Virus record (IMG/VR): IMGVR_UViG_3300036783_000183
Span: 1 to 64,000 of that record
Source: a virus
Taxonomy: Duplodnaviria; Caudoviricetes
Strand: one strand, 5' to 3'
Length of the DNA stretch: 64,000 nt
The notes under the pieces were generated by a model that saw nothing but the letters and a program-made list of their open reading frames with translations, searched no databases and was not told the origin of the DNA. Below, in pieces: positions 1-62,456 of the stretch (the stretch's first letter is position 1; each line of letters starts with the position of its first letter). A program made the position numbers and the translations under genes.

Positions 1-3000
1 CACTGCTGCTGGCCCATCGTCTGGATGCTCGAATCATCCGGCACCGAGGGCTCGTCCATCGACCCCATGCCCGGATTCTGCGTGGTGAACTGGTCCGGGT
101 ACTGGGCCTGGCCGCTGATGCCCGCGCCGACCTGGGCGGCGTAGACCTGGCTGGGGTCGGCAGCAGTGACGCCTTCCGGGTCCAGCGCGGGCTCGGGCTC
201 GTCCTTCAGTTCGGCCAGGGCGCCGTCCGGCTGCGGCTCGCCGAGGACCTCCTCCATCCGGAGGCCCTGGGGATCACGCGGGCTCAGCGATGTCGACGGC
301 CCGCCGGCGGCGCCCCGGTCAGCGTACGGGAAGGACTCACCCCACTCATGAGTGACCGGCCCGGTATCGGTATCCATCGCCTGCGGGCTCAGACCAGCCC
401 CGCCGGCTTCGGTATCCAGGACCGGGCCGGTCCCTTGCCTTGCCGTGCCTCGCCTGCTGGTCCGGCCGGCAGTACTGTTGCCGGAGCTGCCGACCGGATT
501 ATCAATGATCTTAGCGCTTTTATCCTGGTACGCAAACGACTGGCCCTCATCGGCCCAGTCGTTGACGGCCGGGAGATCCAGGACGTTATCGTCCTCGCTG
601 GCGCGGGCCGCCTCGTTGGTCAGCGGCTGCTGGATGGCGCTGTTGTCCGCGATCTCGCCCCAGTTGTCCGGGTCCGGGCCGGCCAGGAAGCCGTAGCTGC
701 CGGGGTCCATGTCCTTCTTGGGCGGCTCGGTCGCGCCGTAGGGCTTCTGCGGCGGGACATTACTGAGGTCCTGAGATCCCCAGGGGGCATTGACCTGATC
801 GGCGGTCAGCTCCAGCCCGGCCAGCCGCAGCAGCGCGGTGACGGCCGCCGGGTCGTCCCCGGCATCGATGAGAACCCGGGCGGCCGTCACCGCAGGCACC
901 GGCATCAGCGCCTCGTCATCCAGCCTAGCAGCTATCAAGGAACTTAGAACGGGACGGGTGGTCTGCGGCGCCCGCCACTCCCGCGCCCAGGACTTGTCCG
1001 AGGGATGCCACGGCGGCTCGGACTTGACCACGACCGTCTCCGGCCAGCCGGACAGCTCGGGGAACATCGCCTTCTGCACGGTGCCGCGCTTGCGGGCCTC
1101 CAGGCCCAGCGCGTAGGCGTGGCTGCACATCCGGCCGGCGAACCGGCCCGGCTGATCGGGATTCTGCCAGAACGTGGCCCACGGGCAGCCGCAGCTGTAG
1201 GCCATCACGGAAAAGCCGCGCCCGGGGTAGTACTGGAGCCCGGTCTCGTACGTGGCGTGATCGCCCTTGACCTCGCCGACCGTCAGGCTACCGGCCAGCG
1301 CGGTGATCCGCACGCCGTTCTCGCGGACGATGCGCTCGGCCTTGGCCACGACATCGCGCCAGGCGGCAGTGAACTCGAACCGGAAGGGGGCACTGCCGGC
1401 CGCCTTCTCGAAGGAGTCCAGCGCCTGATCCGTGCCCGGGTCCTCGTCTTCGCCCTCATCGCCCTCCTCGCCGGGCGGCGGTTCCTGCTGCTGCTGCAGC
1501 TCGGGATGAGCCAGCTGGAAGGACGGCGACTGCTCGACCGGGGTGTAGTTCTGGGTCCTCGGGCCCGGCTTGGGGCCCTGGCTCATCGGCGGCAGGCCGC
1601 GCTGCACCAGGGGCTGCACGGGCTGCTGCTGCGGCGGGGCGGCAGCCGGCTCGCCGTCCTCCAGGCTGTCGTCCGGCGGCGGGAAGTACTGGTCCTGGTC
1701 CTGGGTGTCGTGCATGTGGTCCCAGGGGCCCTCATCGTCCTCCACGTGCCCCGTCCAGGACCACAGGCCCTTGCGGGGCTCCTCCGACTCGCCGGCCAGC
1801 TGCTCCTCGGCCAGCGCCCGGTGATGGCCGTCCGCGACCAGCTGGGCGGGGTTCGAGGGCCGCTGCACCAGGACGGCGGGCTTGGGGCGCTCGCCCTTCC
1901 CGTCGCGCTTCTCGATCTTCTTGCGGGACCTGGCGATGCCCTTCTCGTCCCCGCTGGCCTCCCAGCCGTCCCGGCCGGAGAAGTCCACCTGGTCGAGCGG
2001 GACGTAGTGCGGGCCCTCCCAGCGGGCATCGTGGATCCAGCTCAGCGCGCCCGGCGGGTAGTCCTTGGCCAGCTGCTGGTAGACCGTCTCGGCGGCCGGG
2101 TCGTGCGGCGGGTGCGCGGCCAGCCGCGCGGTCATCTCGGTGAAGGCGCGCGGGCCGACCGCCTCGGCGAACTCGGTCTCCGGGTCGGGCCCGGGGGCCG
2201 GCTCGGGGTAGCGGTTGGTGAACTGGCGGCTGTCCACGAAGTCACCCTCGGTCGCGGTGGGATGGTCCTGCCAGCTGTGCAGCAGCTCGCGCTGGTGCGG
2301 AGTCCACGGCACCCGGGCGTGTTTCACCTGAACCGAGGCCCAGGCCCGGCGCAGGTCGCTGACCGTCTCCCGGTCGAACCCGCGATTACCCTGCAGGTAG
2401 TCCAGGGCTCGCTTCTTGTGCCAGTTAGTCTGCTTTTTCGGCATATCCCGGACATCGGGACCGTCGTAGTGATAGCCCGGGAACGGCTGGCGGTAAGGCT
2501 CATCCCACTTGTGCTGGGGGATCGGGTTGCCGGTGTCGAACTCAGTGCCGTGGTGGCTCTCGATCCAGCCGTGCTCGCCGTATTCCTCGCGGGCATGCGC
2601 GTCGATCGGGATGACCCGGTGGACATGCAGCTTGCCGAAGTGCTCAGAGGGGACGAACATCTCCCCGCCCCAGCGGCTGCGGCTGTCCTCGTGCTCGTGC
2701 ACCGAGGGGTGCGCGTGGATCTCGGCCACGTACGGCCGGACGTAATCATGGCCGTTGACCCAGCTCTCCGGGGTCTTGGTCAGGTAGAGCCCCGTGCCCT
2801 CGCGCGGGCTGATGCTCAGGCTGTTGTCCTGCGGCGCGTGCTCCGGGTCCAGGTCGAACTTCGGGTTGTCGGTGATGTGGTACCAGGTCTCGTGCTCGCC
2901 GTCCATCGCGGCGGTATGCCGCATCGGCTTAGGGAAGTCGACGTGCTCGAAGGGCTCGTTCGGGTACTCCGGCTCGTGCTCCTTCCAGCTGATGCCCTCC

Positions 3001-5648
3001 AGCTGCAGCGGGCTGTCCCCCTTGAGAAATGTCTCGTCCTCGCCCCGGGAGTAGCCCCAGCCCACCTCGTGCTCTTCCAGCTGGCGCGGGTCGCGGATCT
3101 CGTTGCGGCGCCCCGGGCGTTTGACGTGAAACATCACGTCGGTCCTGGGGGCTGACTGGTCCTCCCAGCGCTGATACCCGTGACCGATGTCGGCCGCGTT
3201 CCAGATGGCCCGGTGCGCGATCTGCGTGTGCGGGGTCCAGTGGCGGCCCAGGCCGCCCTGATCGGCAAAGTGCTCGGACAGGGCGCGGGCCCTGTCCTCG
3301 CGCGGGATGCTCTCGTCGTGCACGTAGTCATGCAGGTGATCCGGCAGCTCGGTGACGATGCCCCGGTGCACCGTACTCGGCCGGTACTGCTGGTTGTACT
3401 CGTGCCAGCGGTCGCTCTTCTCCTCGCGCCGCCCCCGGCCGGCCTGCGCGTTCCACCGGTCGATGTCGCGCTCCTCGCCGGGCTGCCACGAGGCTTCCGG
3501 GCGGATGGCGCCGTACTCCGGGGCGGACTTCCACAGCTCACCGAGGTCATGCTGGCCGGCGGCCAGCTCGCGGCCCCGCTCGGTGCCCGCGTCATGCCCG
3601 GCCAGGTAGTCGATGTCTCCCGGGTACGGGCGGGCTACGTCGATCCGGGCCTGCGCCTCGTCGCGGTCGGCGGTCTCGCCGTTCGCCCCGTCCACGTGCC
3701 CGCGCCGGTAGTCATGGTTCGTGTCGAACGCATGCCAGTCGGTCGCGGTATGCCGGATGGCGGCCTCGGCCGCCGAGACGGCGGTCGCCGTAAACGGAGG
3801 TTCACCGCCCTCCTCCTCCGGTTCCTCGCCGGGCATCATCTCTACCGGCCCCGGCTCAGGCTGGCCCAGCTCGTCATCGACGAACTGCTGCTGCGCCGGG
3901 GCGCCCCAGAAGACCCCGCCGACTTCCGGGGCGCCGTTGTAGTCCTGCTCGCGCGGGTCCTCGCCGTCCGCATAGGTGGCGGCCAGGTGATGCCGCTGGG
4001 TGAACGGCAGCGGCTCGCCCTGGTAGGGCAGTTCGCGCTCGACCCGGAACGGGTGCCGGGACATCCGGTTCCCCTCCCGGTTCATCTCGTCGTCGTCCTC
4101 GAAGTCCTCGGGAAACGTCTCGTCTCCCCAGGTGACCGGACCGGTGGGGCTCACCTCGTAGACGTGATGGCTGCCGCCGTGCTCGTGAACGGCGTTGTCG
4201 GCGTGCTGCCAGGCGGTGGCCACGCTAGGCGTGGCGTGCACGAACCCCTGGTGCTCGTCGTCCTCGTACGCTTCGGGGTAGTGAGTCGGGTGTCCCGGTT
4301 CAACGTGATCGCCCGTGCTGAAAGCGTGGTTGGTCCCGTGGTAGAGCCGGGGCACCGGGCCCGGGTGGTAGGCCTGGTTGTGATCCGTCGAGTACGTCCC
4401 GCCCTCCGCCGCGTGCCGGTACCCGCCCTGCTCGTGGTCCCAGATCATCGCGGCATGCGCCCGGATCCCCTCGCCGCCGAACTCGTGGTGGGTCCAGGCC
4501 GGATCCTCGTCCAGGTGCTCCGGGACGCCTGAGTAGGCGCGAGGGCTCAGCCCGTGGTCTGGCTTCGCCCAGGAGATCCCCTTGATCCGCATCGGCGCCT
4601 GGTTCTGGATCGGCACCTCGCGGTTGCTCGTCTTGTGGTAGGAGTGCACGCCCCAGTACTCCAGGGTGTCCGGGTCGGTCTCGACGTGCTGCATGCCGGG
4701 AAAATGCGCGTGCAGCATCACCGGGGTCTGGTAGTGGCTGACCGGCTCCTTGCCCCGGTACCGGTCGATGGTGGTGTTCTCGGCGTAGCTCTTGGACACG
4801 TCCGGTTCATCGGACCAGAAGTTGCCCAGGCCGCCGTGCGGGCTGCCCGCCGCCTGGTCCCGCAGGATGTGACCGGCCAGGGCGCGGGCCCGCTGGTGCA
4901 CCGGGACTGACTCGTCGTGCATGTGCTCGTGCAGCTCGGGCGGCAGCCGCGTCGCGATGCCCCGGTGCAGCGTGTCGCCAGGGCCCTCGGCGTTCCAGTC
5001 GGTGTACCAGTCCTGCTCGCCCAGCCAGTTCGAGTGGTGCTCCTCGTGCTCCCAGCGGTCCTTCAGGTCCCCGCCGCAGTGCTCGCACTCCTCCGGCTCG
5101 TACGTCCCCCTGGCCTGCTGGACGTGCTTGACGTGGTGGAAGGTCACCTCGGGATCGCGCTCGCCGAAGTTCCAGCCGCACTCCGGACAGTCCGGATGAG
5201 GCTGATGCTGCATGTGGAAGAGCTTCTCCTGGCTGTACGGCAGCGGGACGGCGGTGTGCCGCGAGCCGATCATCGAGATCTGCCGACCCGGATCCGGCCG
5301 GTCCTCCAGGATGGTGCCCATCTCCGGGTACCAGTGCGAGGCCAGGGACTCCAGGTCGGCTTCAGCCTCCAGCGCGGCCGTCACCCCGGCGGGCAGGTAC
5401 GCGGGTGCCTGGTGGCCGCCGCCGTAGCCCTCGCCGACCGGCCGCAGCTGATTGCCCAGGAACGTGCCGCCGCCCATGCCGTTATCGAGAATGACCTGGT
5501 ACTCGGTATTGCCGGGACTGAAGCTCTCGGTGACCAGGATGACCCGGCCGATGGCGCCATCCAGGGTGCGGACCCGCTGGCCGACGCTGAACTCCTGGTC
5601 CAGCGCAGCGCTGAGCCGGGTCGCGTGCTTCTCGATCCGGCGTTCCAC
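1..5648 (-). CDS. Giant modular head-region/polyvalent protein (>1880 aa, 3' end runs off window); ART-like, ParB-like, SWIM-like domains
   Basis: GTG at 5646-5648 behind GGAGAGGAGG; open frame to position 1 (absent from the ORF track because there is no stop; the + ORFs 348, 1005, 3180, 4554 and 4917 are its antisense shadows). Motifs RLYHGTNHAF..FVHATPS..VYEV (Arr-like ART), LVADGHHRALA (ParB/Srx), YSCGC..MCSHAYAL (SWIM CxC..CxH). Confidence 0.85.
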   Translation of the reverse strand, partial: MERRIEKHATRLSAALDQEFSVGQRVRTLDGAIGRVILVTESFSPGNTEYQVILDNGMGGGTFLGNQLRPVGEGYGGGHQAPAYLPAGVTAALEAEADLESLASHWYPEMGTILEDRPDPGRQISMIGSRHTAVPLPYSQEKLFHMQHQPHPDCPECGWNFGERDPEVTFHHVKHVQQARGTYEPEECEHCGGDLKDRWEHEEHHSNWLGEQDWYTDWNAEGPGDTLHRGIATRLPPELHEHMHDESVPVHQRARALAGHILRDQAAGSPHGGLGNFWSDEPDVSKSYAENTTIDRYRGKEPVSHYQTPVMLHAHFPGMQHVETDPDTLEYWGVHSYHKTSNREVPIQNQAPMRIKGISWAKPDHGLSPRAYSGVPEHLDEDPAWTHHEFGGEGIRAHAAMIWDHEQGGYRHAAEGGTYSTDHNQAYHPGPVPRLYHGTNHAFSTGDHVEPGHPTHYPEAYEDDEHQGFVHATPSVATAWQHADNAVHEHGGSHHVYEVSPTGPVTWGDETFPEDFEDDDEMNREGNRMSRHPFRVERELPYQGEPLPFTQRHHLAATYADGEDPREQDYNGAPEVGGVFWGAPAQQQFVDDELGQPEPGPVEMMPGEEPEEEGGEPPFTATAVSAAEAAIRHTATDWHAFDTNHDYRRGHVDGANGETADRDEAQARIDVARPYPGDIDYLAGHDAGTERGRELAAGQHDLGELWKSAPEYGAIRPEASWQPGEERDIDRWNAQAGRGRREEKSDRWHEYNQQYRPSTVHRGIVTELPDHLHDYVHDESIPREDRARALSEHFADQGGLGRHWTPHTQIAHRAIWNAADIGHGYQRWEDQSAPRTDVMFHVKRPGRRNEIRDPRQLEEHEVGWGYSRGEDETFLKGDSPLQLEGISWKEHEPEYPNEPFEHVDFPKPMRHTAAMDGEHETWYHITDNPKFDLDPEHAPQDNSLSISPREGTGLYLTKTPESWVNGHDYVRPYVAEIHAHPSVHEHEDSRSRWGGEMFVPSEHFGKLHVHRVIPIDAHAREEYGEHGWIESHHGTEFDTGNPIPQHKWDEPYRQPFPGYHYDGPDVRDMPKKQTNWHKKRALDYLQGNRGFDRETVSDLRRAWASVQVKHARVPWTPHQRELLHSWQDHPTATEGDFVDSRQFTNRYPEPAPGPDPETEFAEAVGPRAFTEMTARLAAHPPHDPAAETVYQQLAKDYPPGALSWIHDARWEGPHYVPLDQVDFSGRDGWEASGDEKGIARSRKKIEKRDGKGERPKPAVLVQRPSNPAQLVADGHHRALAEEQLAGESEEPRKGLWSWTGHVEDDEGPWDHMHDTQDQDQYFPPPDDSLEDGEPAAAPPQQQPVQPLVQRGLPPMSQGPKPGPRTQNYTPVEQSPSFQLAHPELQQQQEPPPGEEGDEGEDEDPGTDQALDSFEKAAGSAPFRFEFTAAWRDVVAKAERIVRENGVRITALAGSLTVGEVKGDHATYETGLQYYPGRGFSVMAYSCGCPWATFWQNPDQPGRFAGRMCSHAYALGLEARKRGTVQKAMFPELSGWPETVVVKSEPPWHPSDKSWAREWRAPQTTRPVLSSLIAARLDDEALMPVPAVTAARVLIDAGDDPAAVTALLRLAGLELTADQVNAPWGSQDLSNVPPQKPYGATEPPKKDMDPGSYGFLAGPDPDNWGEIADNSAIQQPLTNEAARASEDDNVLDLPAVNDWADEGQSFAYQDKSAKIIDNPVGSSGNSTAGRTSRRGTARQGTGPVLDTEAGGAGLSPQAMDTDTGPVTHEWGESFPYADRGAAGGPSTSLSPRDPQGLRMEEVLGEPQPDGALAELKDEPEPALDPEGVTAADPSQVYAAQVGAGISGQAQYPDQFTTQNPGMGSMDEPSVPDDSSIQTMGQQQ

Positions 5649-5680
5649 GGGCCCTCCTCTCCTCTTCCGAGGGGCCCGCC

Positions 5681-8045
5681 TGCCGTGCCCGGATACGCCC
5701 CGCCCGGCGTTCCTTGCCCGTCCATGCCTCGCCTAGACGGCCCAGCCTAACCTCGACCAGACAGGCCTCGCCTAGACAGGACGGCCCAGCGCTGCCCAGC
5801 CTAGCCTCGACCAGACAGGCCGTCCCATGCCCTGACGGCTACGCCCGGCAGTGCCTTGCCCCGTCAGGCCGAGCCTTGCCATAACGGCCGCGCCATGCCC
5901 AGGCAGGCCCCGCCTCGCCTCGCATCACCGGCCGAGCCCGGCCTCGCCAGGCCTCGCCTCATCATGCAAAGCCACGCCACGCCAAGACGGCCTTGCGATG
6001 ACGTGCCCTGCCGTGCGATCGCAGCCCTGTACTGCCCAGCCTTGACGGCCTGGCCGAGCGACGCCATGACAACCTAACCGCGCCCTGCCGATCCGGCCGC
6101 GCCTAGCCTCGCCGAGCCGACCCACGACAAGCCACGCCAAGACCGCCTCGCCACGCCGAGCCTTGACTCGCCATGCCTGGCCTTAACCGCCGCGCCAGGC
6201 CCGGACGGGCCTTGCTTTGCCGGGCCTCACCGGCCACGCCACGCCTGGACCCGTCTAGCCCTGCCGGGCCGAGACAGCCGCGCCGTGCTGCGCCAAACCT
6301 TGCCCGGCCAGGCCAGGACTAGCCTCGCCTAGACGGCCGCGATGAGCCGTACCGTGCCCGGACCTGACATGCCATGAGTAGCGATGCCCGGCCTGCCCCG
6401 CCGAGAGCTGCCATGCCCGGCCCTGCGCTCCAAGACGCGCCTGACCAAACCTGCCTCGCCAAGCCGCGCCATGCCCAGCCTTGCACGGCCAGGATAGGCC
6501 GAGCCGAGCCAGGACAGCCACGCAACGCCGTGCCCGGACCAGCCAAGCAGCCAGCGCCATACCGCACCTGGACAGCCCGGACTGACCGCGCCGAGCCGTG
6601 CCCCGCCTACCGAGCCGCGCCCTGACCTGACGGCCGAGCCGATCCGTGCCTTGACTCGCCACGCCTTCGCAAGCACTGCCTGGACGGCCAGGCCGAGCCC
6701 TGCCTGGCACGGCCTCGCCGTGCCTGGTCAGGCACTGCCGCGACGGCCCCGCGAACCATGCCTTGCCTTGACGCGCCCCGTCTAACGCTGCCTCGACGGC
6801 CCGGCCACGCCTTGCCGTTGCTTGCCTTGCCGCGCCTAGACGGCCCCGCGAAACCCGGCCGGGACGGGCACCGCCTGGCCGCGCCTAGCCCTGACGGCCC
6901 CGCCAAGCCGAGCCTCACCATACCTCGCCATGCTGCCCGTCCAAGCCTCGCCTTGACGGCCTGACACCGCAATGCCCCGGCATGCCATGATCAGCCCCGC
7001 CATACGCTGACGGCCATGCCGGGCCAGGCCAGGACTCGCCTAGCCATGCAGGGCCTTGCCTTTCCGGCCGCGCCGGGCCACGCGGTGCGATGCAGCGTCA
7101 TGCCTTGCCTTGACGGCCTGGCCAGGACGTGCTGTCCCGAGCCCTGCCTTGCCTCTCCGGCCTTGCCGTGCTGAGACGAGCCTTGCCCAGCGGTCCACGC
7201 CAAGTAAAGCCAACCCGCCACGCCCTGCTGCACCCTGGCAAGACGCGCACTGCCCTGCGGTGACGGCCTGGCTATACCTTGCCTGGCCTCGCCTCGCCAT
7301 CCCTGGCCACGCCCCTCCGGCCCAGACGTGCCGCGCCAAGACTAGCTGCCGCGATCCGCGCCATGCGAAGACAGCCGCCCATACCTCACCCGGACTCGCC
7401 GTGCCAGGATCATGCCATAACGGCCTCGCCATGCCGGGCCCGGCCAGGCCGTGCCTAGCCTTGACGGCCGTGCCGAACGGTGCCCGGTACTGCCGGGACG
7501 GGCGATGCCTATCCGGCCACGCCAAACCGTGCCTTGACCGGATAGGCCGGGCTACGCCTGCCGCGCCTGGCCGAGCGACCGTCGCCGTGCCCAGCTGAGC
7601 CTCACCTCGGCAACCAGCCGGGACAGGCCCTGCCAGGCCTTGCCGTGACCATCCTGGCCTTGACGGCACTGCCGAGCCCTGCCGAGCATCGACGAGCCGC
7701 GCCATGCCTAAGGCACTGCGCCCTGCCGAGACGGCCCTGCCGCCTATGCCGAGCTATGCCGTGCTGCGCAAGCCACGCACTGCCTTGCCCCTCCAGCCGG
7801 TCCCCGCCGTGCCCAGCCATGCTGAGAAATGCCACGCACTGCGTCACCAGCCGGGCCCATCGATACGATCCATTCCTTGACTGGACGGCCGTAGCCAAGC
7901 CGAGCACAGCAACCCACCCGCGCCTTGCCTCGCCTGCCGAGCCGAGCGGCACGCAGCCGATCTGCCCGCGCTCAGCTAAGCCGCGCCATTCCGGCTCAGC
8001 CTCACCGCGCCCAGCCAGGACAGGCCACGCTCCGCATCGCCTCGC
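5681..8045 (-). repeat. GGY-NN pentamer array 1 (putative guide-RNA/vrRNA array, roughly 40 units)
   Basis: Continuous 5-nt periodic NNGCC on + (GGC/GGT-NN on -); delimiter [G/A]AC[G/T]GCC at 5736, 5780, 5834, 5883, 5986, 6044, 6683, 6742, 6795, 6839, 6893, 6955, 7009 etc.; the ORFs called here are low-complexity artefacts. Confidence 0.9.
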
Positions 8046-8060
8046 TATTCCTCCGCAAGT

Positions 8061-10247
8061 TTATAGCACATCCGCGTCGTCGGGCAGCTCGTCGCCGTCC
8101 TTCAGGGCCGCCTCGCGGCGGACGCCGACCACGCGCGGGGTCTTGTAGCTGGCCGGGGCGTCATGCGTCGCCCATTTGTTGATCACATCCACTTCCCCAT
8201 CGGCCAGCACGTGCGGGGTGCCGTGCTCCTCGTCCTCCAGGACCGGGTGCTCGCGGGCGCGGGCCTGCTGGCGGGTCCGGGCGGTGCGGCGGAACAAGCT
8301 GGCCTCGCTCGGCATGCCCTTGCGCTCCTCGTCGGACTCCGGCGGCCGGTCGGACTCCTCGCCGGGGCCCGGCTCCTCGTCTTCCGGGCCCTCGGGCGGC
8401 GCGTTGGGCGGCTCCTCCTCGGCCTGCTCCTGCTCCTGCTCGTCCTCGGGCCCGGGGGCCAGGGCCAGCAGCGGGCCGCCCGCCGGCGGCTCGGTGCCGA
8501 GGCGGGGCAGCGGCATGCCGCCCGTGCTCGGGCCCTGCGGCATCCCCTCGACCTGGGCGACGGGGGCGAAGTCGGCCTCCAGGTCCTCGGGCACCGGCAG
8601 GCCCTGGTCGCGCAGCGCGATGTAGACCTGCTTGCGGGTCTCCTGCTCGGCCACGGCCTGGGCGACGGCCTCGTCCTGGGACCGGGCGACCTCCTCGTCC
8701 AGGTCGATCTCCAGGTTGCGGGTCCGGGTCCGCTGGCTGATCGGGATGCCGGACGCGCGCAGCGCCTCGACGAACTGGCGGGTCGCGTCCTCGTCCTTCA
8801 GGTTCAGCACCTTGAACCGGCGGTCGGGGACCAGCAGCTTGGGCTGCTCGACGAGGTGCTTCTCGCCGGTCTCCTCGTCCTGCTCCAGCACCTCCTCCAT
8901 GATCACGTAGCGCTTGCCGCCGTGCTCGCGGTAGTCGTAGTGCTCCTGCGCCTCGGCCACGACCATGGCCCGCTGCCGGAAGTGCCGGGCCTGGAAGCGC
9001 TGGTACTTGGCCATCAGCATGGTGACCAGTTCCTTGTTCAGCGCGTCGGCCGCGTACGTCTGGCCGGACTGGGCGCCCATCAGGAACGTGCGGGACAGGC
9101 CGAACACCTGCAGGATCGAGTCCTCGATCCGCTCGAAGTCCGGGGTCAGGTCGGGCATGTTCTCGCGGCCGAGCACGGGCAGCATCTCGACGGCGAAGTT
9201 GTAGATCAGCGCGCGGAAGTCGCCGGCCAGGGCGGCGTCCAGGGCCAGCTCGAAGTTCTCCAGGTCGTCATCGGTCGGGATCCACGGCTGGGAGGTGCCC
9301 AGGTCGGTGGCGCTGGCGCCGAGCTTGCAGAGGATCAGCGGGGTGTACAGCCGGTCGGCGATCGAGTCGAGCGCGGTGTTGAGCATCTCCTTCTGCAGCA
9401 TCGAGCGCATCGCCCGGGTCAGCAGCGGGACGCCGCGCACGTTGAACGTGTCGCCCCGGAACTTCAGCTGCTTCAGCAGGATGTTGGACACCGGCATGAA
9501 GGTGTTCTCGGCGGTATAGGCGCTCAGCTCGGGGTACTCCGCGATCAGCCGGTTGTACTCCCAGGCGGGCTGGCGGGTCTGCAGGATCTGCCGGATGGTC
9601 CAGGGCAGCCGGATGAAGTAGCGGGGCTCCTTCAGGAACGGGCTGCGCTCGACCTTCACGTCATCGGGGTTGAGCAGCTCCTCGTCGTCCCAGATGCCGA
9701 GGTCCTCGTTGAAGGTGGCGAACGGCCAGGCCTCGCCGGAGGTCCAGTACTCCCGGCCGATGTCGACGGTGAACTCCTCGTAGTCGAGATGCTCCTCGTT
9801 GAAGAACAGGTCGCCGTAGAAGTCCTCCAGCCGGGGGTCCTTGCACTCCAGGTGGTCGCCCATGGTCGGGAACTTGCTGAAGATGTCGACGCAGGACCCG
9901 ATGATCGGGTCGGTCTGGTACAGCAGCCGGCAGAACGCGCGGACCTTGGCCAGCTCCTCGTTCTGGGAGAAGTCGTAGGGCAGGTTGTTCTGCCGCCAGT
10001 AGAACAGCGGGTCGCGCGGGCGCCCGGTGGCGAACTGGATGTCGCCGAAGCCGCCGGCCGCGCCGCCCCCGCCGCCGCCGCCGTAGGCGCCCGTGCGCCG
10101 CATGACCGAGCGGTTCTTGCGGGCCTCGGCGACCTCGGGTGTCATCGTCCCGGCCCGCTCGGCGCCCAGCGCCAGCATCCGGCTCATGCCCTCGCTGACC
10201 TTGCGGTCGCGGTCCAGAGCGGCGGCGGCGGAGAACTGGAGCTTCAC
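8061..10247 (-). CDS. Portal protein
   Basis: 728 aa; core CRLLYQTDPIIGSCVDIFSKFP, GVPLLTRAMRS, LYTPLILCKLG typical of large actinophage portals; acidic C-terminal tail; GTGA overlap with upstream gene. Confidence 0.8.
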   Translation of the reverse strand: MKLQFSAAAALDRDRKVSEGMSRMLALGAERAGTMTPEVAEARKNRSVMRRTGAYGGGGGGGAAGGFGDIQFATGRPRDPLFYWRQNNLPYDFSQNEELAKVRAFCRLLYQTDPIIGSCVDIFSKFPTMGDHLECKDPRLEDFYGDLFFNEEHLDYEEFTVDIGREYWTSGEAWPFATFNEDLGIWDDEELLNPDDVKVERSPFLKEPRYFIRLPWTIRQILQTRQPAWEYNRLIAEYPELSAYTAENTFMPVSNILLKQLKFRGDTFNVRGVPLLTRAMRSMLQKEMLNTALDSIADRLYTPLILCKLGASATDLGTSQPWIPTDDDLENFELALDAALAGDFRALIYNFAVEMLPVLGRENMPDLTPDFERIEDSILQVFGLSRTFLMGAQSGQTYAADALNKELVTMLMAKYQRFQARHFRQRAMVVAEAQEHYDYREHGGKRYVIMEEVLEQDEETGEKHLVEQPKLLVPDRRFKVLNLKDEDATRQFVEALRASGIPISQRTRTRNLEIDLDEEVARSQDEAVAQAVAEQETRKQVYIALRDQGLPVPEDLEADFAPVAQVEGMPQGPSTGGMPLPRLGTEPPAGGPLLALAPGPEDEQEQEQAEEEPPNAPPEGPEDEEPGPGEESDRPPESDEERKGMPSEASLFRRTARTRQQARAREHPVLEDEEHGTPHVLADGEVDVINKWATHDAPASYKTPRVVGVRREAALKDGDELPDDADVL

Positions 10248-20118: not shown

Positions 20119-20161
20119 GCCCTGCCTCCCGGAGTTCTCTATCCTTCCGGGGGACAGGGCA

Positions 20162-20260
20162 ATGCCTGCCGGGCCTCGCCTCGCCGAGCCGCACCTCGAC
20201 GGCCGCACCACGCCGGGCCCTCCCTCACCGGGCCCTGCCTAGCCTTGACTGCCTTGCTGC
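20162..20260 (-). repeat. GGY-NN mini-array (about 2 units)
   Basis: Delimiters at 20198 and 20247 enclosing 8 pentamers + 2 nt (49 nt). Confidence 0.8.
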
Positions 20261-20263
20261 CTG

Positions 20264-21193: not shown

Positions 21194-21254
21194 GGCTCTC
21201 CTTTTTCTCTATGATTACTGATTCACCGATGATGCTACAGGTACCTTGATTGCT

Positions 21255-22680
21255 TTACCACGCCGGGCCGAGCCTCACCAGGACCTGCCTAGACGCAACT
21301 GCCTTGCCGCGCGATGCCGAGACGAGCCCCGACGAGACGTACTCACCCTGCCCAGCGCCGACTGCCATGCCCGGCGTTGCCGGGCCAAGACCCGCCGTTC
21401 CCCGGCGAGCGGTACCACGACTGCCTTGCCCGGCCAGGCTGCGATGTGCCCCGCCTTCCCGTACCACGCCCGCCAGGCGATGACCCACCGCGCCACGCGG
21501 TGACCAGCCCTGCCTACCCGCACCCGGCCAAGACGGCCTCGCCGCCCTTGCCTCGCCAAGCGACCCACGCCAGGCCCAGATCGGCCGCGACTGCCGTGCC
21601 AGGCTAGGCCAGGACTGGACGTACCGAGACCCGCCGTGCCATGACTGCCTCGCCCTACGCTCCGTGCCGGACCGAGCGCCACCGGGCCCAGGCATGCCGA
21701 GCCCCGCGTTTGCCTGCCCAGCCTTGCCCTGCCAAGCCGCGCTCTGTCATGCCTAGCCGGAGCCCTGCCTAGCGCTGACTGCCCTGCCTCGCCAGGCCAA
21801 ACAGCCCTCGCCGGGGAGTGCCCCGCCTGGACGGCCGAGCCACGCCATGCGCTCCCGCCGTTCCGCGCCGTGCGCCGCCACGTGGTGCCAGGACACGCCG
21901 CGCCTGGCCTTACCTGCCGCGCCAAGCCTTGCACAGCCAGGGCGCGCCGTGCCTTGCGCCTCCGGCCGCGCCAAGCATCACCTCGCGACGCCACCCCGTG
22001 CCTAGCCCGGCCATCCTGCCGGGCCCCGCCATGCCTTGCCGCTCTGCGCCAGGACTCGCACGACCCGGCCAGGCCTAACCTGCCCTGCCGTGCCATGCCT
22101 CTCCTGGCCCGGACATGCCAAGCCTTGACTGCCGTGCCGCACCGTGCCAAGCGATGCCCTGCCCAGCCGACCAGGACGAGCCTGCCCCGCCAGGCCGGGC
22201 CTTGCCGAGCATCGCCCTCCCCGCACTGCCCAGACGGCCTCACCCGTCCGTGCCAGGACGCACCTGGCCAGGCTTTGCCTCGACGGCCGGGCCAGGCCTT
22301 GCCTTGCCTTGCCATGACACGCCAGGACACGCCACCGCCACGCCAAGCCGAGACGGCCATGCCTTACCGCGCCGTGCCGAGCTATCGGCGACGGGCCTTA
22401 CCACCCCGGCTGTCCCAGCCTCGCCTGGCCTTGACCGGCCGCGCCACGCCTTGACTGCCATGCCATGCCGTCCATGCGCCGCTACCCGGGCGTCCCGGTC
22501 CAAGCCACGGCTGCCTCGCCTGGCCTTGCCTGGCCCGTCCAGGCGGTGCCTGGCGATGCCTCTCCTGCCATGCGAAGCCCAGCCCAGCGTTGCCAGGCCC
22601 TGGGCCGCCATGCCATCCGGCCCTGCGCTGCCGCGCACCGCCCAGCCCAGCGGGGCCTCGCCACGTCCAGCCGTGCCATA
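21255..22680 (-). repeat. GGY-NN pentamer array 2, directly downstream of the RAMP-like operon (putative vrRNA array, roughly 25 units)
   Basis: 5-nt periodicity; delimiters at 21297, 21360, 21419, 21532, 21589, 21643, 21777, 21830, 22233, 22282, 22352 etc. Confidence 0.9.
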
Positions 22681-22686
22681 AACAAG

Positions 22687-22725
22687 CCGGGGCCAGGACG
22701 GGCATGGCTGTCGTCCTGGCCCCGG
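22687..22725. other. 14-bp hairpin between partner gene and array 2
   Basis: CCGGGGCCAGGACG-11 nt-CGTCCTGGCCCCGG. Confidence 0.7.
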
Positions 22726-22742
22726 GGCCCCGCGAGATCATC

Positions 22743-23231
22743 TCAGGCTTCGAGCACGAGCGGCTCGTCACCGCCGTTGTCGCCGTCGTCGCCGTCATCT
22801 GACGGCGGCGTGTCCCGGCGCACCATCCGGATGAAGTCCTCGAAGTGGTCGTACTTGCGCCGCAGCGCCCGCCACTCCATCTCCATCTGGCGCTTCAGCT
22901 GCGCGGTCATGACCTCGTTCGCCTTGATCTCGTCCAGGGGAACGTAGGCCCGGCCGCCCGGGGCCGAGGGCACCGGCATCGAGTGGAACACCCGGATCTG
23001 CTCCGGGTGCCCCCGCGCGCCCACGTAGACCTCGCGGATCACGCGGACGAGCTGCCGGGCCTGCTGCACCCGGTACTTCGGGCCCGCGACATCATCGCGC
23101 CACTCGAAGTGCGAGTGCAGCAGGTGCGCCGGATCCGAGGCGGCCTCGACGATCATCCTGGCGGTCAGGATGCCGCCGTTGGCCGCCCGGATCGCGAGCA
23201 GCTCGGCTTCGATCTCAGCCTTGGTCGCCAC
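22743..23231 (-). CDS. Conserved small partner protein of the RAMP-like gene
   Basis: 162 aa; LTARMIVEAASDPAHLLHSHFEWRDD..KYRVQQARQLVR; overlaps the stop of the RAMP-like gene. Confidence 0.75.
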   Translation of the reverse strand: MATKAEIEAELLAIRAANGGILTARMIVEAASDPAHLLHSHFEWRDDVAGPKYRVQQARQLVRVIREVYVGARGHPEQIRVFHSMPVPSAPGGRAYVPLDEIKANEVMTAQLKRQMEMEWRALRRKYDHFEDFIRMVRRDTPPSDDGDDGDNGGDEPLVLEA

Positions 23232-24159
23232 TGCCGGCGTCCTCGGCGAGGCCCTCGCCCTCGACGGAGCCCTCGATCGCGGCCTTGTCCTTGGCCTTGG
23301 CCTTGGGCAGCTCCTCGGGCGGGGTGTCGAGCAGCGCGAAGTCGTCCAGGGTCAGGATCTCCCCGTCATTCTCGTCGAAGGCGTAGGCGGACAGGTCCGG
23401 CGCGTACTCGGCCGGCAGCTCGTCCATGATGCCGATCGCGTCGTCGTGGTCGGCGATCCGGAACGTGCCGAACTCCCCGTTGCGCTCCGGCCGCCATTCC
23501 CCGACGCCCACGCCCATGCCGCCCGCCTCGATGAGCGAGACCAGCGAGTCGCGGTCGATCAGGTTCTTGGTGTAGGAGACGTACAGGGTCGCCGACCACC
23601 TGGGGAAGCAGCCCCGGTAGCGCAGGTCGGCCGGGTGGTTGACGCCGGCCAGCCGCACGTAGTCCTCCCGCATCATCGGCCGCCCGTCGAGCACGACCAT
23701 GCGGCTCGGCTCGGTCGGCACGGAGACGCCGTAGAAGAACATGAACTGGCGAAGCTCGGTCATCTTGACCTGCTTGCCGTAGTAGCGCCCGGCGCCGATG
23801 GTGGCCATCTTGAAGGCCATGGCCGGGATGCCGAACCGGACCTCGCCGGTCTCGCCGTTGACGCCGGCCCGGTACAGCGAGGCCAGGAACTCCCGGCGCG
23901 GATCGCGCTTCTCGGGCTGGCGCCGCACGCCCTGCTGGGCGGCGAGCATCTGCGTCTTGGCCTTCTCGGAGAACCGGCTGACGATCAGCGGCGAGGTGCC
24001 CACGATGTCGATCGCGAGCAGCTCGGTCTCGATCGGCTTGATGACCAGCTTGGCCGGGCCGCCGGCCGGGGCGGCCGAACGGCCGCGAGCGGCGCGGGTA
24101 GTGCTGACGGTCTGGCCGTCTGCTGCCGGAGCTTCCGGCGTAGCCTGAGGTGCAGGCAT
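23215..24159 (-). CDS. RAMP/Cas7-like protein (candidate Vipr effector)
   Basis: 314 aa; IDIVGTSPLIV (first RRM strand), FGIPAMAFKMA (cf. Cas7-group IPGSSxKG), FPRWSATL, C-terminal Gly-rich loop EAGGMGVGVGEWRPERNGEFGTF; adjacent GGY-NN array. Confidence 0.7.
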   Translation of the reverse strand: MPAPQATPEAPAADGQTVSTTRAARGRSAAPAGGPAKLVIKPIETELLAIDIVGTSPLIVSRFSEKAKTQMLAAQQGVRRQPEKRDPRREFLASLYRAGVNGETGEVRFGIPAMAFKMATIGAGRYYGKQVKMTELRQFMFFYGVSVPTEPSRMVVLDGRPMMREDYVRLAGVNHPADLRYRGCFPRWSATLYVSYTKNLIDRDSLVSLIEAGGMGVGVGEWRPERNGEFGTFRIADHDDAIGIMDELPAEYAPDLSAYAFDENDGEILTLDDFALLDTPPEELPKAKAKDKAAIEGSVEGEGLAEDAGSGDQG

Positions 24160-61636: not shown

Positions 61637-61893
61637 GGCGGTTCTCCAGGTGTCTGCTCCCCAGCAGCGTACGCGTCGGCTGTCTCCTCGCACCAGCCGT
61701 AGCCGCAGTGCAGGCAGCGCCGGCACAGATGCTCCCGGAGGATCCGGCTGTTGGGATCATCGGTCCAGCAGGGGGAGCCGACCACAGCGATCATGTGATG
61801 CAGCGCATCGATCTGCTCGGCCAAGCATTTCGGACAATTTCGATCGGGAGCATAGTTCAACAGGATCCCGGGCATGCCGAACGGCTGCGTCAT
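61633..61893 (-). CDS. Small Zn-binding protein
   Basis: CPKC..HLCRRCLHCGYGW. Confidence 0.55.
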   Translation of the reverse strand: MTQPFGMPGILLNYAPDRNCPKCLAEQIDALHHMIAVVGSPCWTDDPNSRILREHLCRRCLHCGYGWCEETADAYAAGEQTPGEPP

Positions 61894-61897
61894 CCCT

Positions 61898-62150
61898 CAC
61901 CTGCCAAACCTGACCATGCCGCGCCGAGCACAAACGTGCCGATCTGCGCCGTGCCTTACCCAGACTGCCAGGCCAAACCTCGCCACGTCCCGCCGCACTC
62001 CGCCTCGACTGCCTAGCCCCGCCTGAACGGACCCCGCCCGGACATGCCTCGCTAAGCAAAGCCTCGCCGCGCCAGGCCTCGACTGCCATGCCTCACCGCG
62101 CCCCACAGTGCCAGACCCCGCACTCCGCACCTCGCCGCGCTGCGCCGCGC
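61898..62150 (-). repeat. GGY-NN mini-array (about 4 units)
   Basis: Delimiters GACTGCC at 61963, 62007, 62081; spacings 44 (7 pentamers) and 74 (13 pentamers). Confidence 0.85.
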
Positions 62151-62177
62151 CTTCACGCTATAATCATAGCGTGAAGG
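62150..62177. other. 11-bp hairpin at the 5' end of the mini-array
   Basis: CCTTCACGCTA-TAATCA-TAGCGTGAAGG. Confidence 0.7.
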
Positions 62178-62180
62178 TCC

Positions 62181-62456
62181 CCACGGCATCGCCCACGCCA
62201 GCCACGGCATTCCCCACGGCATAATTACGGGCTGACCTGCGGACCCACGGCACCACGCCATAATCGGCGATATTTTCCTGTGGCGCCGTCACTCTTCCCC
62301 CCTCAAAGTTGATTTATCAATAAATAATAAAAATTGAAGTCTGCTGTGGCAGCTCACAGAAAAAGGTTGCAGAAAATGCCGTGGTGCTGTGGGTGCCCAG
62401 CTCAGGGGCACTTTATGCCGTGGGGAATGGCGTGATTGCCGTGGGAAATGCCGTGG
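62181..62456. promoter_or_regulatory. Probable replication origin: inverted iteron clusters around an AT-rich core
   Basis: CCACGGCA at 62181, 62202, 62214, 62245; TGCCGTGG at 62377, 62416, 62437, 62449; AT-rich core ~62305-62340. Confidence 0.6.

What the first reader, a model, noticed from the sequence alone, without database searches (positions are those of the whole stretch)
5681..8045. 2.4-kb orphan guide-like array inside the head operon, about 15 kb from the effector gene
Seen: the largest GGY-NN array fills the whole gap between the portal stop (8061) and the start of the giant head-region gene (5648). It is on the same strand and has the same grammar as array 2, but no RAMP gene is adjacent. 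Inference: it is transcribed with late genes and used in trans, giving a late-infection guide set (roughly 40 units), possibly even packaged or pre-loaded. Spending 2.4 kb of non-coding DNA in a structural operon implies selection.
Basis: partly seen in the sequence, partly recalled or inferred. Interest (0 to 1): 0.8.

Follow-up and report, generated by a model that had tools for sequence, protein, structure and literature searches.

The report
Remote VIPR guide-RNA array after portal
The 2.4-kb gap after the phage's portal gene is a real run of about 480 five-base GGY-NN steps, best read as several dozen guide RNAs for the phage's own Cas7-like Vipr protein encoded 15 kb away. It is a large, remote example of the VIPR system published in 2026, not a new kind of element.

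Summary
Window 5681-8045, minus strand, is non-coding and holds about 480 GGYNN pentamers. It fills the gap between the portal stop and the start of a giant ADP-ribosyltransferase-bearing gene.

The register slips by one base at GGCC|GTC-type junctions. This gives 33 full units of 39-64 nt and about 20 shorter pieces.

The grammar matches VIPR vrRNAs (bioRxiv 10.64898/2026.04.26.720920), of the tail-less "staggered" kind. The contig has one Vipr gene (23215-24159). Its only PDB sequence match is SUSP1 Vipr, its model has a Cas7 fold, and the GGY-reading residues are kept.

Eight relatives carry an array at the same spot after the portal. The two long enough to test also carry vipr and its partner gene. 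Three array-less relatives carry neither.

Flanking genes align between relatives, but array content does not. The closest pair differs by unit-sized indels.

Targets were not established. There was no self-match and no enrichment in relatives. One exact but not wobble-aligned hit turned up in another phage's minor-head gene.

Late transcription is plausible, because there is no promoter or terminator. Packaging has no evidence.

The scan had already found similar remote arrays in this genome and in another one.

The parts
5681..8045 (-). Remote staggered vrRNA array. About 480 GGYNN pentamers form 33 full units (7-12 pentamers, 39-64 nt) and about 20 shorter runs. Units are joined by one-base register slips, mostly GGCC|GTC.
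8046..8060 (-). Short linker between the portal stop codon and the first pentamers. The sequence TATAAACTTGCGGA across the stop is conserved in the closest relatives. There is no room for a separate promoter.
5649..5680 (-). End of the array plus an RBS-like GAGGAGAGGAGG just before the GTG start of the next gene. The local hairpin is no more stable than shuffled sequence.
8061..10247 (-). Portal protein gene directly upstream of the array on the same strand.
   Evidence: phrog_2833, E 3.6e-132
3..5648 (-). Giant gene directly downstream (more than 1882 aa, running off the contig end). It has an Arr-like ADP-ribosyltransferase domain and looks like a polyvalent protein.
23215..24159 (-). vipr, the only Cas7-like Vipr gene on the contig and the presumed protein partner of the array.
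22743..23231 (-). Partner (vap-like) gene immediately downstream of vipr. It is conserved next to vipr in relatives G001 and G002.
21250..22745 (-). vipr-adjacent vrRNA array with the same pentamer and junction grammar.
61850..62215 (-). Small further GGYNN array with the same grammar.
20161..20263 (-). Mini-array of two units with the same grammar.

Best explanation
The region is a remote, tail-less ('staggered') array of VIPR guide RNAs (vrRNAs). It belongs to the phage's own VIPR system, whose vipr and partner genes lie 15 kb away.

Inferred mechanism:
1. The array is transcribed on the minus strand, most simply as a 3' extension of the portal message.
2. The transcript is cut, or simply bound, unit by unit at the one-base-overlap junctions (GGCC|GTC).
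3. One Vipr protomer binds each GGY and exposes the NN dinucleotides.
4. Each filament of 8-12 protomers then pairs its NN string with double-stranded DNA that reads NNxNNx (the 1-nt skip rule). This silences a competing mobile element.

Shown here:
- the pentamer grammar;
- the unit structure;
- that the region is non-coding;
- a Vipr homologue with conserved GGY-reading residues;
- co-inheritance of array, vipr and partner gene in relatives;
- non-redundant NN content;
- turnover by unit-sized indels.

Inferred, not shown:
- transcription and its timing;
- processing;
- loading by Vipr;
- the targets.
For: Grammar: GGY carries 1.1-1.2 bits per position and NN carries 0.0 bits. This matches the published vrRNA definition.

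Junctions: the one-base register slip fits the 'staggered, 1-nt overlapping' arrays of the paper's fig. S18 legend. The same junction grammar occurs in the vipr-adjacent array and in relatives' arrays.

Vipr protein:
- A single-sequence search of the PDB gives SUSP1 Vipr (36pp_D) as the top hit, E 0.0018.
- A 32-sequence profile gives it as the only hit, E 2.5e-7.
- SUSP1 R138, W178 and R179 align to invariant R182, W222 and R223. D177 aligns to invariant E221.
- The AlphaFold model (pLDDT 79) matches Csm3/Cas7 chains best.

Co-occurrence:
- All eight relatives with a portal at least 84% identical have an array right after the portal, on the portal strand.
- The two long contigs among them also have vipr (70-72% identity) and the partner gene.
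- Three array-less relatives have neither. One of them is a 100%-complete 165-kb genome.

Content:
- NN words are non-redundant across about 1,200 pentamers in five arrays.
- There is no self-target.
- NN strings of single units are more coherent in sense/antisense codon-position-1-2 bias than permuted ones: p 0.03 for this array and 0.0002 for all 87 units. The statistic peaks at the true unit boundaries.

No Rfam family, hammerhead ribozyme, promoter or terminator interrupts the region.
Against: - No RNA data exist for this phage.
- Targets were not established. Matches under skip rules 0-3 equal those of shuffled guides in the phage's own contig, in 85 related loci and in four related genomes.
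- Seven guides scanned in IMG/VR and two in JGI metagenomes gave one exact hit. In that hit the skipped bases fall on codon position 1, not the wobble position, and no other guide converges on that contig.
- Only 59% of pentamers are strict GGY. The portal-proximal 400 nt are degenerate (49%), and about 20 runs are too short to be full guides. Part of the array may therefore be decayed.
- Units lack the structured 3' tail of characterised type II vrRNAs.
- NN is about 52% A+T in a 70% G+C genome and correlates poorly with the phage's own codon usage.
- The contig is only 46% complete, so a second effector cannot be excluded.
Confidence: 0.82

Rival explanations
1. Decoy or sponge. The long GGY-NN transcript is not a guide set. 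Instead it soaks up Vipr protomers of rival phages, or buffers the phage's own, in the way satellite-encoded solo vrRNAs redirect a helper's VIPR.
For: Solo vrRNAs that redirect another element's Vipr are documented. The array would need about 480 protomers per transcript. No targets were found. Many units are irregular.
Against: - The phage has its own vipr and partner gene, and they are co-inherited with this array.
- A sponge would not need maximal-entropy, non-redundant NN content.
- It would not need unit lengths in the working range of vrRNAs.
- It would not need unit-coherent codon-like bias.
Confidence: 0.07
2. Largely decayed or selfish repeat DNA. A former vrRNA array expanded by slippage and unequal crossing-over and is now mostly non-functional ballast.
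For: - Only 59% of pentamers are strict GGY.
- The portal-proximal end is degenerate.
- About 20 runs are truncated.
- Close relatives differ by unit-sized indels and partial duplications, as expected from repeat instability.
- In the homologous L069/L041 pair, substitutions are no rarer at GGY (7/745) than at NN (3/414).
Against: - A 1.3-2.4 kb array is kept at the same junction in eight relatives in a size-limited phage genome.
- GGY is still far above background while NN stays at zero information.
- 33 units keep canonical length and junctions.
- The published description notes frequent internal degeneracy of working vrRNAs.
Confidence: 0.08
3. A DNA-level or RNA-structure element unrelated to Vipr. 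Examples are a G-rich two-tetrad quadruplex tract, a binding array for another ring or filament protein in the manner of TRAP, or a packaging or curvature signal.
For: (GGCNN)n could in principle form two-layer G-quadruplexes, and a 5-bp period is half a helical turn; both points are my own reasoning. The position beside the portal gene might suggest a link to packaging.
Against: - The array is present only in relatives that carry vipr and absent from a complete vipr-less relative.
- The same grammar sits directly after vipr-vap.
- Strand asymmetry follows the direction of transcription in every relative.
- Units do not fold better than shuffles, apart from one of the two tested.
- There is no Rfam match.
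Confidence: 0.03

Closest known systems
VIPR systems with staggered vrRNA arrays (bioRxiv 10.64898/2026.04.26.720920, text and legend of fig. S18; structures in 10.64898/2026.04.26.720927)
   Same: - Alternating conserved GGY and hypervariable NN pentamers.
- 8-12 repeats per unit.
- Units that abut with a one-base overlap and have no ribozyme or structured tail.
- A Cas7-like Vipr with conserved GGY-reading residues, plus a small partner gene.
- Phage-borne, with no self-targets.
   Different: - This array lies 15 kb from vipr, between the portal gene and a polyvalent-protein gene. That is outside the 20-kb windows the paper analysed.
- It is 2.4 kb, and five arrays take 8.8% of the contig. 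The characterised SUSP1 has four vrRNAs.
- The VIPR type and vap class were not assigned here.
- Targets are unknown.
Solo / orphan vrRNAs of SUSP1-family phages and F5 satellites (bioRxiv 10.64898/2026.10.15.759431)
   Same: vrRNAs that are not next to a vipr gene and act in trans on a Vipr made elsewhere.
   Different: - Those are one or two tailed vrRNAs in VIPR-null elements that exploit another element's Vipr.
- This is a multi-kilobase tail-less array in a genome that has its own vipr.
- No match to vipr-family genes was found in codon space.
CRISPR arrays, including orphan and phage-borne mini-arrays
   Same: - A library of non-redundant guide segments between conserved elements.
- A RAMP-fold protein reads it.
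- Content turns over by whole units between close relatives.
   Different: - The period is 5 nt with guide information interleaved, not 60-79 nt repeat-spacer units.
- There are no repeats with hairpins.
- No cas1/cas2 or other cas genes were seen.
- Recognition is non-contiguous.
TRAP-type RNA binding to (G/U)AG triplets spaced by 2-3 nt (my own knowledge, not tested)
   Same: A protein oligomer reads a triplet every 5 nt along an RNA.
   Different: TRAP is an 11-mer ring that regulates one operon through 11 triplets. It has no variable information in the spacers and no RAMP fold.

Membership tests
VIPR system | A Vipr protein with a RAMP/Cas7-like fold (RRM core, G-loop, thumb) encoded in the same genome | tested here: met
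   Window 23215-24159(-). Its top PDB sequence match is SUSP1 Vipr 36pp_D at E 0.0018; a 32-sequence profile gives it as the only hit at E 2.5e-7. The AF2 model has pLDDT 79, and the top Foldseek hits are Csm3/Cas7 chains at E 1e-5. There is one copy on the contig.
VIPR system | Residues that read the GGY motif (SUSP1 R138, D177, W178, R179) | tested here: met
   The profile alignment puts R138, W178 and R179 on invariant R182, W222 and R223, and D177 on invariant E221, a conservative change. H17 could not be aligned reliably.
VIPR system | RNA-coding tract of tandem pentamers with conserved GGY and hypervariable NN | tested here: met
   Information is 1.06, 1.07 and 1.21 bits at positions 1-3 and 0.03 and 0.00 bits at positions 4-5. 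All 16 NN dinucleotides are used. Periodicity z = 18.4.
VIPR system | Guide units of about 9-16 repeats | tested here: met
   There are 33 runs of 7-12 full pentamers, each plus the overlapping junction pentamer. There are also about 20 shorter, probably degenerate runs.
VIPR system | Staggered architecture: adjacent vrRNAs overlap by 1 nt, with no ribozyme and no tail | tested here: met
   The register slips by -1 at GGCC|GTC-type junctions, with 65 slips in all. No hammerhead or other Rfam hit was found, and there is no stable unit fold. Only the legend of fig. S18 could be read, not the figure.
VIPR system | vrRNAs located in the intergenic regions flanking vipr | tested here: not met
   This array is 15.2 kb from vipr. 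A second array (21250-22745) does sit directly after vipr-vap. So the system meets the feature, but this array does not.
VIPR system | Accessory vap gene next to vipr | tested here: met
   A 162-aa gene (22743-23231) overlaps the vipr stop and belongs to phrog_15946, of unknown function. It is conserved next to vipr in G001 and G002. The vap class was not assigned.
VIPR system | Expression of unit-sized RNAs that co-purify with Vipr | not testable with these tools
   No transcriptome or pull-down data exist for this metagenomic phage.
VIPR system | NN strings match DNA of competing elements under the 1-nt skip rule, without self-targets | tested here: inconclusive
   No self-match rose above shuffles. 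There was no enrichment in 85 related loci or four related genomes. One exact 20/20 match was found in IMG/VR (L109:7532-7560). It extends to 22/22 if the overlapping junction pentamer is counted, but it is not wobble-aligned and about 0.1-0.3 such hits are expected by chance.
CRISPR-Cas | Direct repeats of 25-40 nt alternating with spacers, and cas genes | tested here: not met
   The only period is 5 nt. No long direct repeats were found. The only RAMP is the minimal Vipr.

The most novel reading that the evidence does not exclude
In this phage clade, VIPR arrays may behave as a growing guide library rather than a fixed handful of guides.

- There are more than 85 non-redundant units in five arrays, taking 8.8% of the contig.
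- One array is hard-wired into the portal transcript, so a distinct guide set would be made with the late structural genes.
- Content turns over by whole units between phages whose arrays are otherwise about 99% identical. One example is a unique 121-nt block with no source elsewhere in either array.

That would point to an as yet undescribed way of acquiring new vrRNA units, a primitive adaptation step in a CRISPR relative.
Probability: 0.1. Interest if true: 0.85.

Novelty: new member of a known kind. Interest (0 to 1): 0.38.

Why it matters
The finding shows that a VIPR-positive phage can keep most of its guides far from the vipr gene.

- Here at least 4.9 of 6.4 kb of array lies outside the vipr locus, including inside the structural gene block.
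- Surveys limited to about 10 kb either side of vipr therefore undercount guide repertoires.
- The portal-adjacent position is conserved across a clade while the content is replaced. Close relatives differ by unit-sized indels.
- This gives a natural system for asking how vrRNA arrays gain and lose guides, and whether different arrays are expressed at different times of infection.

It does not change the known mechanism.

Tried and rejected
1. Coding or collagen-like reading: rejected. A 5-nt period cannot be coding, and every frame has 13-22 stops.

2. Known RNA families and ribozyme-interspersed arrays: one sub-threshold miRNA hit only.

3. Promoter or terminator between portal, array and next gene: none on the minus strand.

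4. Structured tail or leader: the boundary regions and two units were folded. Only one unit beat shuffles (z -2.5), so there is no consistent structure.

5. Target search under skip rules 0-3 in the phage's own contig and in 85 loci around relatives' portals: equal to shuffles.

6. Target search under the 1-nt skip rule in four related genomes, two with and two without VIPR: equal to shuffles.

7. Exact-pattern scans. Seven guides were scanned in IMG/VR and two in JGI metagenomes, giving one hit. I do not count that hit as established.

8. Guides against 120 Vipr-family proteins in codon-position-1-2 space, to test for anti-vipr targeting: equal to shuffles.

9. NN usage against the phage's own codon positions 1-2: correlation of only about 0.1.

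10. Differential substitution at GGY versus NN in the only truly homologous pair: no difference, and too few substitutions to judge.

11. Host assignment from prophage relatives of the portal: only metagenome bins of mixed phyla, so it is uninformative. Named members of this Vipr family are actinobacterial, which is only a hint.

13. Tandem Repeats Finder sees only fragments with periods of 20-25, because NN varies.

Full report
**What is there**

Window 5681-8045 is a very regular five-base rhythm. Read on the minus strand, it is a chain of about 480 pentamers of the form GGYNN.
- Identity at lag 5 is 0.50. It is 0.27-0.30 at lags 4 and 6, and 0.26 in the neighbouring portal gene.
- That is 18 standard deviations above a first-order Markov model of the same region.
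- In register, positions 1-3 are G (83%), G (79%, otherwise mostly T) and C (86%, otherwise T). Positions 4 and 5 carry 0.03 and 0.00 bits, and all sixteen dinucleotides are used.
- Every reading frame holds 13-22 stops.
- The tract starts about 15 nt after the stop of a portal gene (8061-10247, phrog_2833, E 3.6e-132).
- It ends about 30 nt before the GTG of a gene of more than 1882 aa. That gene carries an Arr-like ADP-ribosyltransferase domain. All three features are on the minus strand.

**Unit structure**

The pentamer register slips back by one base at intervals. The slip is most often at GGCC|GTC (17 times), and also at GGCC|GGA and GGCT|GTC.
- Between slips lie 33 runs of 7-12 full pentamers (39-64 nt; 44, 49, 54 and 59 nt are the common sizes).
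- There are also about 20 shorter runs.
- The portal-proximal 400 nt are the most degenerate at 49% strict GGY. The stretch 6460-6060 reaches 68%.

**How I came to the identification**

I read that paper and three related ones.

VIPR consists of a minimal Cas7-like protein (Vipr), a small accessory gene, and vrRNAs made of 9-16 GGY/NN repeats. One protomer binds each repeat, flips out GGY and presents NN. The target is double-stranded DNA read as NNxNNx.

Besides tailed vrRNAs, the paper describes 'staggered arrays' in which adjacent vrRNAs overlap by one nucleotide. That is what the -1 register slips look like here.

**Independent tests of membership**

- The 314-aa product of 23215-24159 has SUSP1 Vipr as its best PDB sequence match (E 0.0018).
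- A profile of 32 homologues gives SUSP1 Vipr as the only hit (E 2.5e-7).
- In that alignment, SUSP1 residues R138, W178 and R179 fall on residues that are invariant in this family. Per the structural paper these hold the GGY bases. D177 falls on an invariant glutamate.
- The AlphaFold model (pLDDT 79) finds Csm3/Cas7 chains first.
- It is the only such gene on the contig, which is about 46% complete.
- A 162-aa partner gene follows it, and then a 1.5-kb array with the same grammar.

**Comparative evidence specific to this array**

- Of 80 viral contigs with a related portal, exactly the eight with at least 84% portal identity have a five-base array directly after the portal stop, on the portal strand. 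These are L001-L005, L040, L041 and L069.
- The two long contigs among them also carry vipr (70-72% identity) and the partner gene. Both again have a vipr-adjacent array.
- Three array-less relatives have neither gene. One is a complete 165-kb genome with terminal repeats. They have ordinary small ORFs after the portal.
- Portal and downstream gene align at 75-93% DNA identity between these phages, but the arrays do not align.
- Within the closest pair (L069 and L041), the shared parts are about 99% identical. The differences are insertions or deletions of 44, 54 and 121 nt. Two of these partly duplicate a neighbouring unit, and one has no similar sequence elsewhere in either array.
- Substitutions in that pair are too few to show a GGY-versus-NN difference: 7/745 against 3/414.
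- In the window itself, two adjacent units (5836-5783 and 5782-5739) share five consecutive pentamers. This is the only repeated 5-NN word among about 1,200 pentamers in five arrays.
- The array therefore looks like a non-redundant library that changes by whole units.

**Are the units guides?**

Direct proof would be targets, and I could not establish them.
- Under skip rules 0-3, best matches equal those of shuffled guides in the phage's own contig and in 85 loci near relatives' portals. The own-contig result is consistent with no self-targeting.
- Guides do not match 120 Vipr-family proteins in codon space.
- Exact-pattern scans of seven long guides in IMG/VR and two in JGI metagenomes gave one hit.
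- That hit is unit 7318-7265, which matches 20 of 20 specified bases in a MuF-like minor-head gene of an unrelated 58% G+C contig (L109:7532-7560).
- It matches 22 of 22 if the overlapping junction pentamer is counted.
- However, the skipped bases fall on codon position 1, no other unit converges on that contig, and roughly 0.1-0.3 chance hits were expected. I record it only as a candidate.

Indirect support comes from the NN strings themselves.
- Single units are more one-sided in sense versus antisense codon-position-1-2 bias than permuted strings. The p-value is 0.03 for this array and 0.0002 for all 87 units.
- The statistic is highest at the true unit boundaries.
- This fits guides copied from, or selected against, coding DNA on either strand.

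**Expression**

No sigma-70-like promoter or intrinsic terminator lies between portal, array and next gene.
- The array abuts the stop codon, as the vipr-adjacent array abuts the partner gene's stop.
- Read-through from the portal message is thus the simplest model.
- That would make this a late-expressed guide set, but it is inference only.
- Nothing bears on packaging.

**Verdict**

This is a genuine, large, remote member of a kind published in 2026.
- Remote placement in the structural block is outside the 20-kb windows analysed in the discovery paper.
- The scale is unusual: 2.4 kb here, and 8.8% of the contig in all.
- The unit-wise turnover among near-identical phages is also notable.

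The scan has already reported such remote arrays elsewhere in this genome and after terL in another genome.

Noticed in passing
L041:11180-11989 (also L040 and L069); equivalent to window ~9067: The portal gene of the closest relatives carries an in-frame insertion of about 270 aa. It starts CLTGD..., ends ...VVHN|S and contains an HNH motif, so it looks like an intein with a homing endonuclease. The window's portal lacks it.
   Followed up: partly
L109:7532-7560 (IMGVR_UViG_3300033463_001875): This is the only exact 1-nt-skip match found for any scanned guide (unit 7318-7265). It lies inside a 1184-aa MuF-like minor head protein gene of a 58% G+C viral contig. It is not wobble-aligned and no other guide matches that contig.
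   Followed up: yes
window 5739-5836: Two adjacent units share five consecutive pentamers (NN string CT TG GA TA TG). This is the only repeated 5-NN word in all five arrays and is probably an old tandem unit duplication.
   Followed up: yes
window 5681-8045 compared with 21250-22745 and contig 69600-71660: Junction 'dialect' differs between arrays. GGCC|GTC dominates here (17 times), and GGCA|GTC is not among this array's eight commonest junctions. GGCA|GTC is the commonest junction in the vipr-adjacent array (7) and in the 69.6-kb array (15).
   Followed up: no
window 5681-8045: The NN positions are about 52% A+T in a genome of 30% A+T. GG and CC are the rarest NN dinucleotides. This could reflect avoidance of register confusion or A+T-richer targets.
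   Followed up: partly
window 3-5648: The gene after the array is a third giant polyvalent-type protein. It has an Arr-like ADP-ribosyltransferase domain (residues 435-511) and weak Zn-ribbon and HNH signals near residue 150. It runs off the start of the contig.
   Followed up: partly
whole contig (G000) and relatives G004, L013, L024, L028, L037, L042: The window's contig is rated 46% complete. Related contigs cluster at 160-166 kb, and one of them has direct terminal repeats. The full phage is probably about 165 kb and may hold further arrays.
   Followed up: no
L002:13860-14290 and L005:4145-4648: In two relatives, about 450 nt lie between the end of the clear five-base rhythm and the start of the giant gene. 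The window has no such stretch, and I did not characterise it.
   Followed up: no
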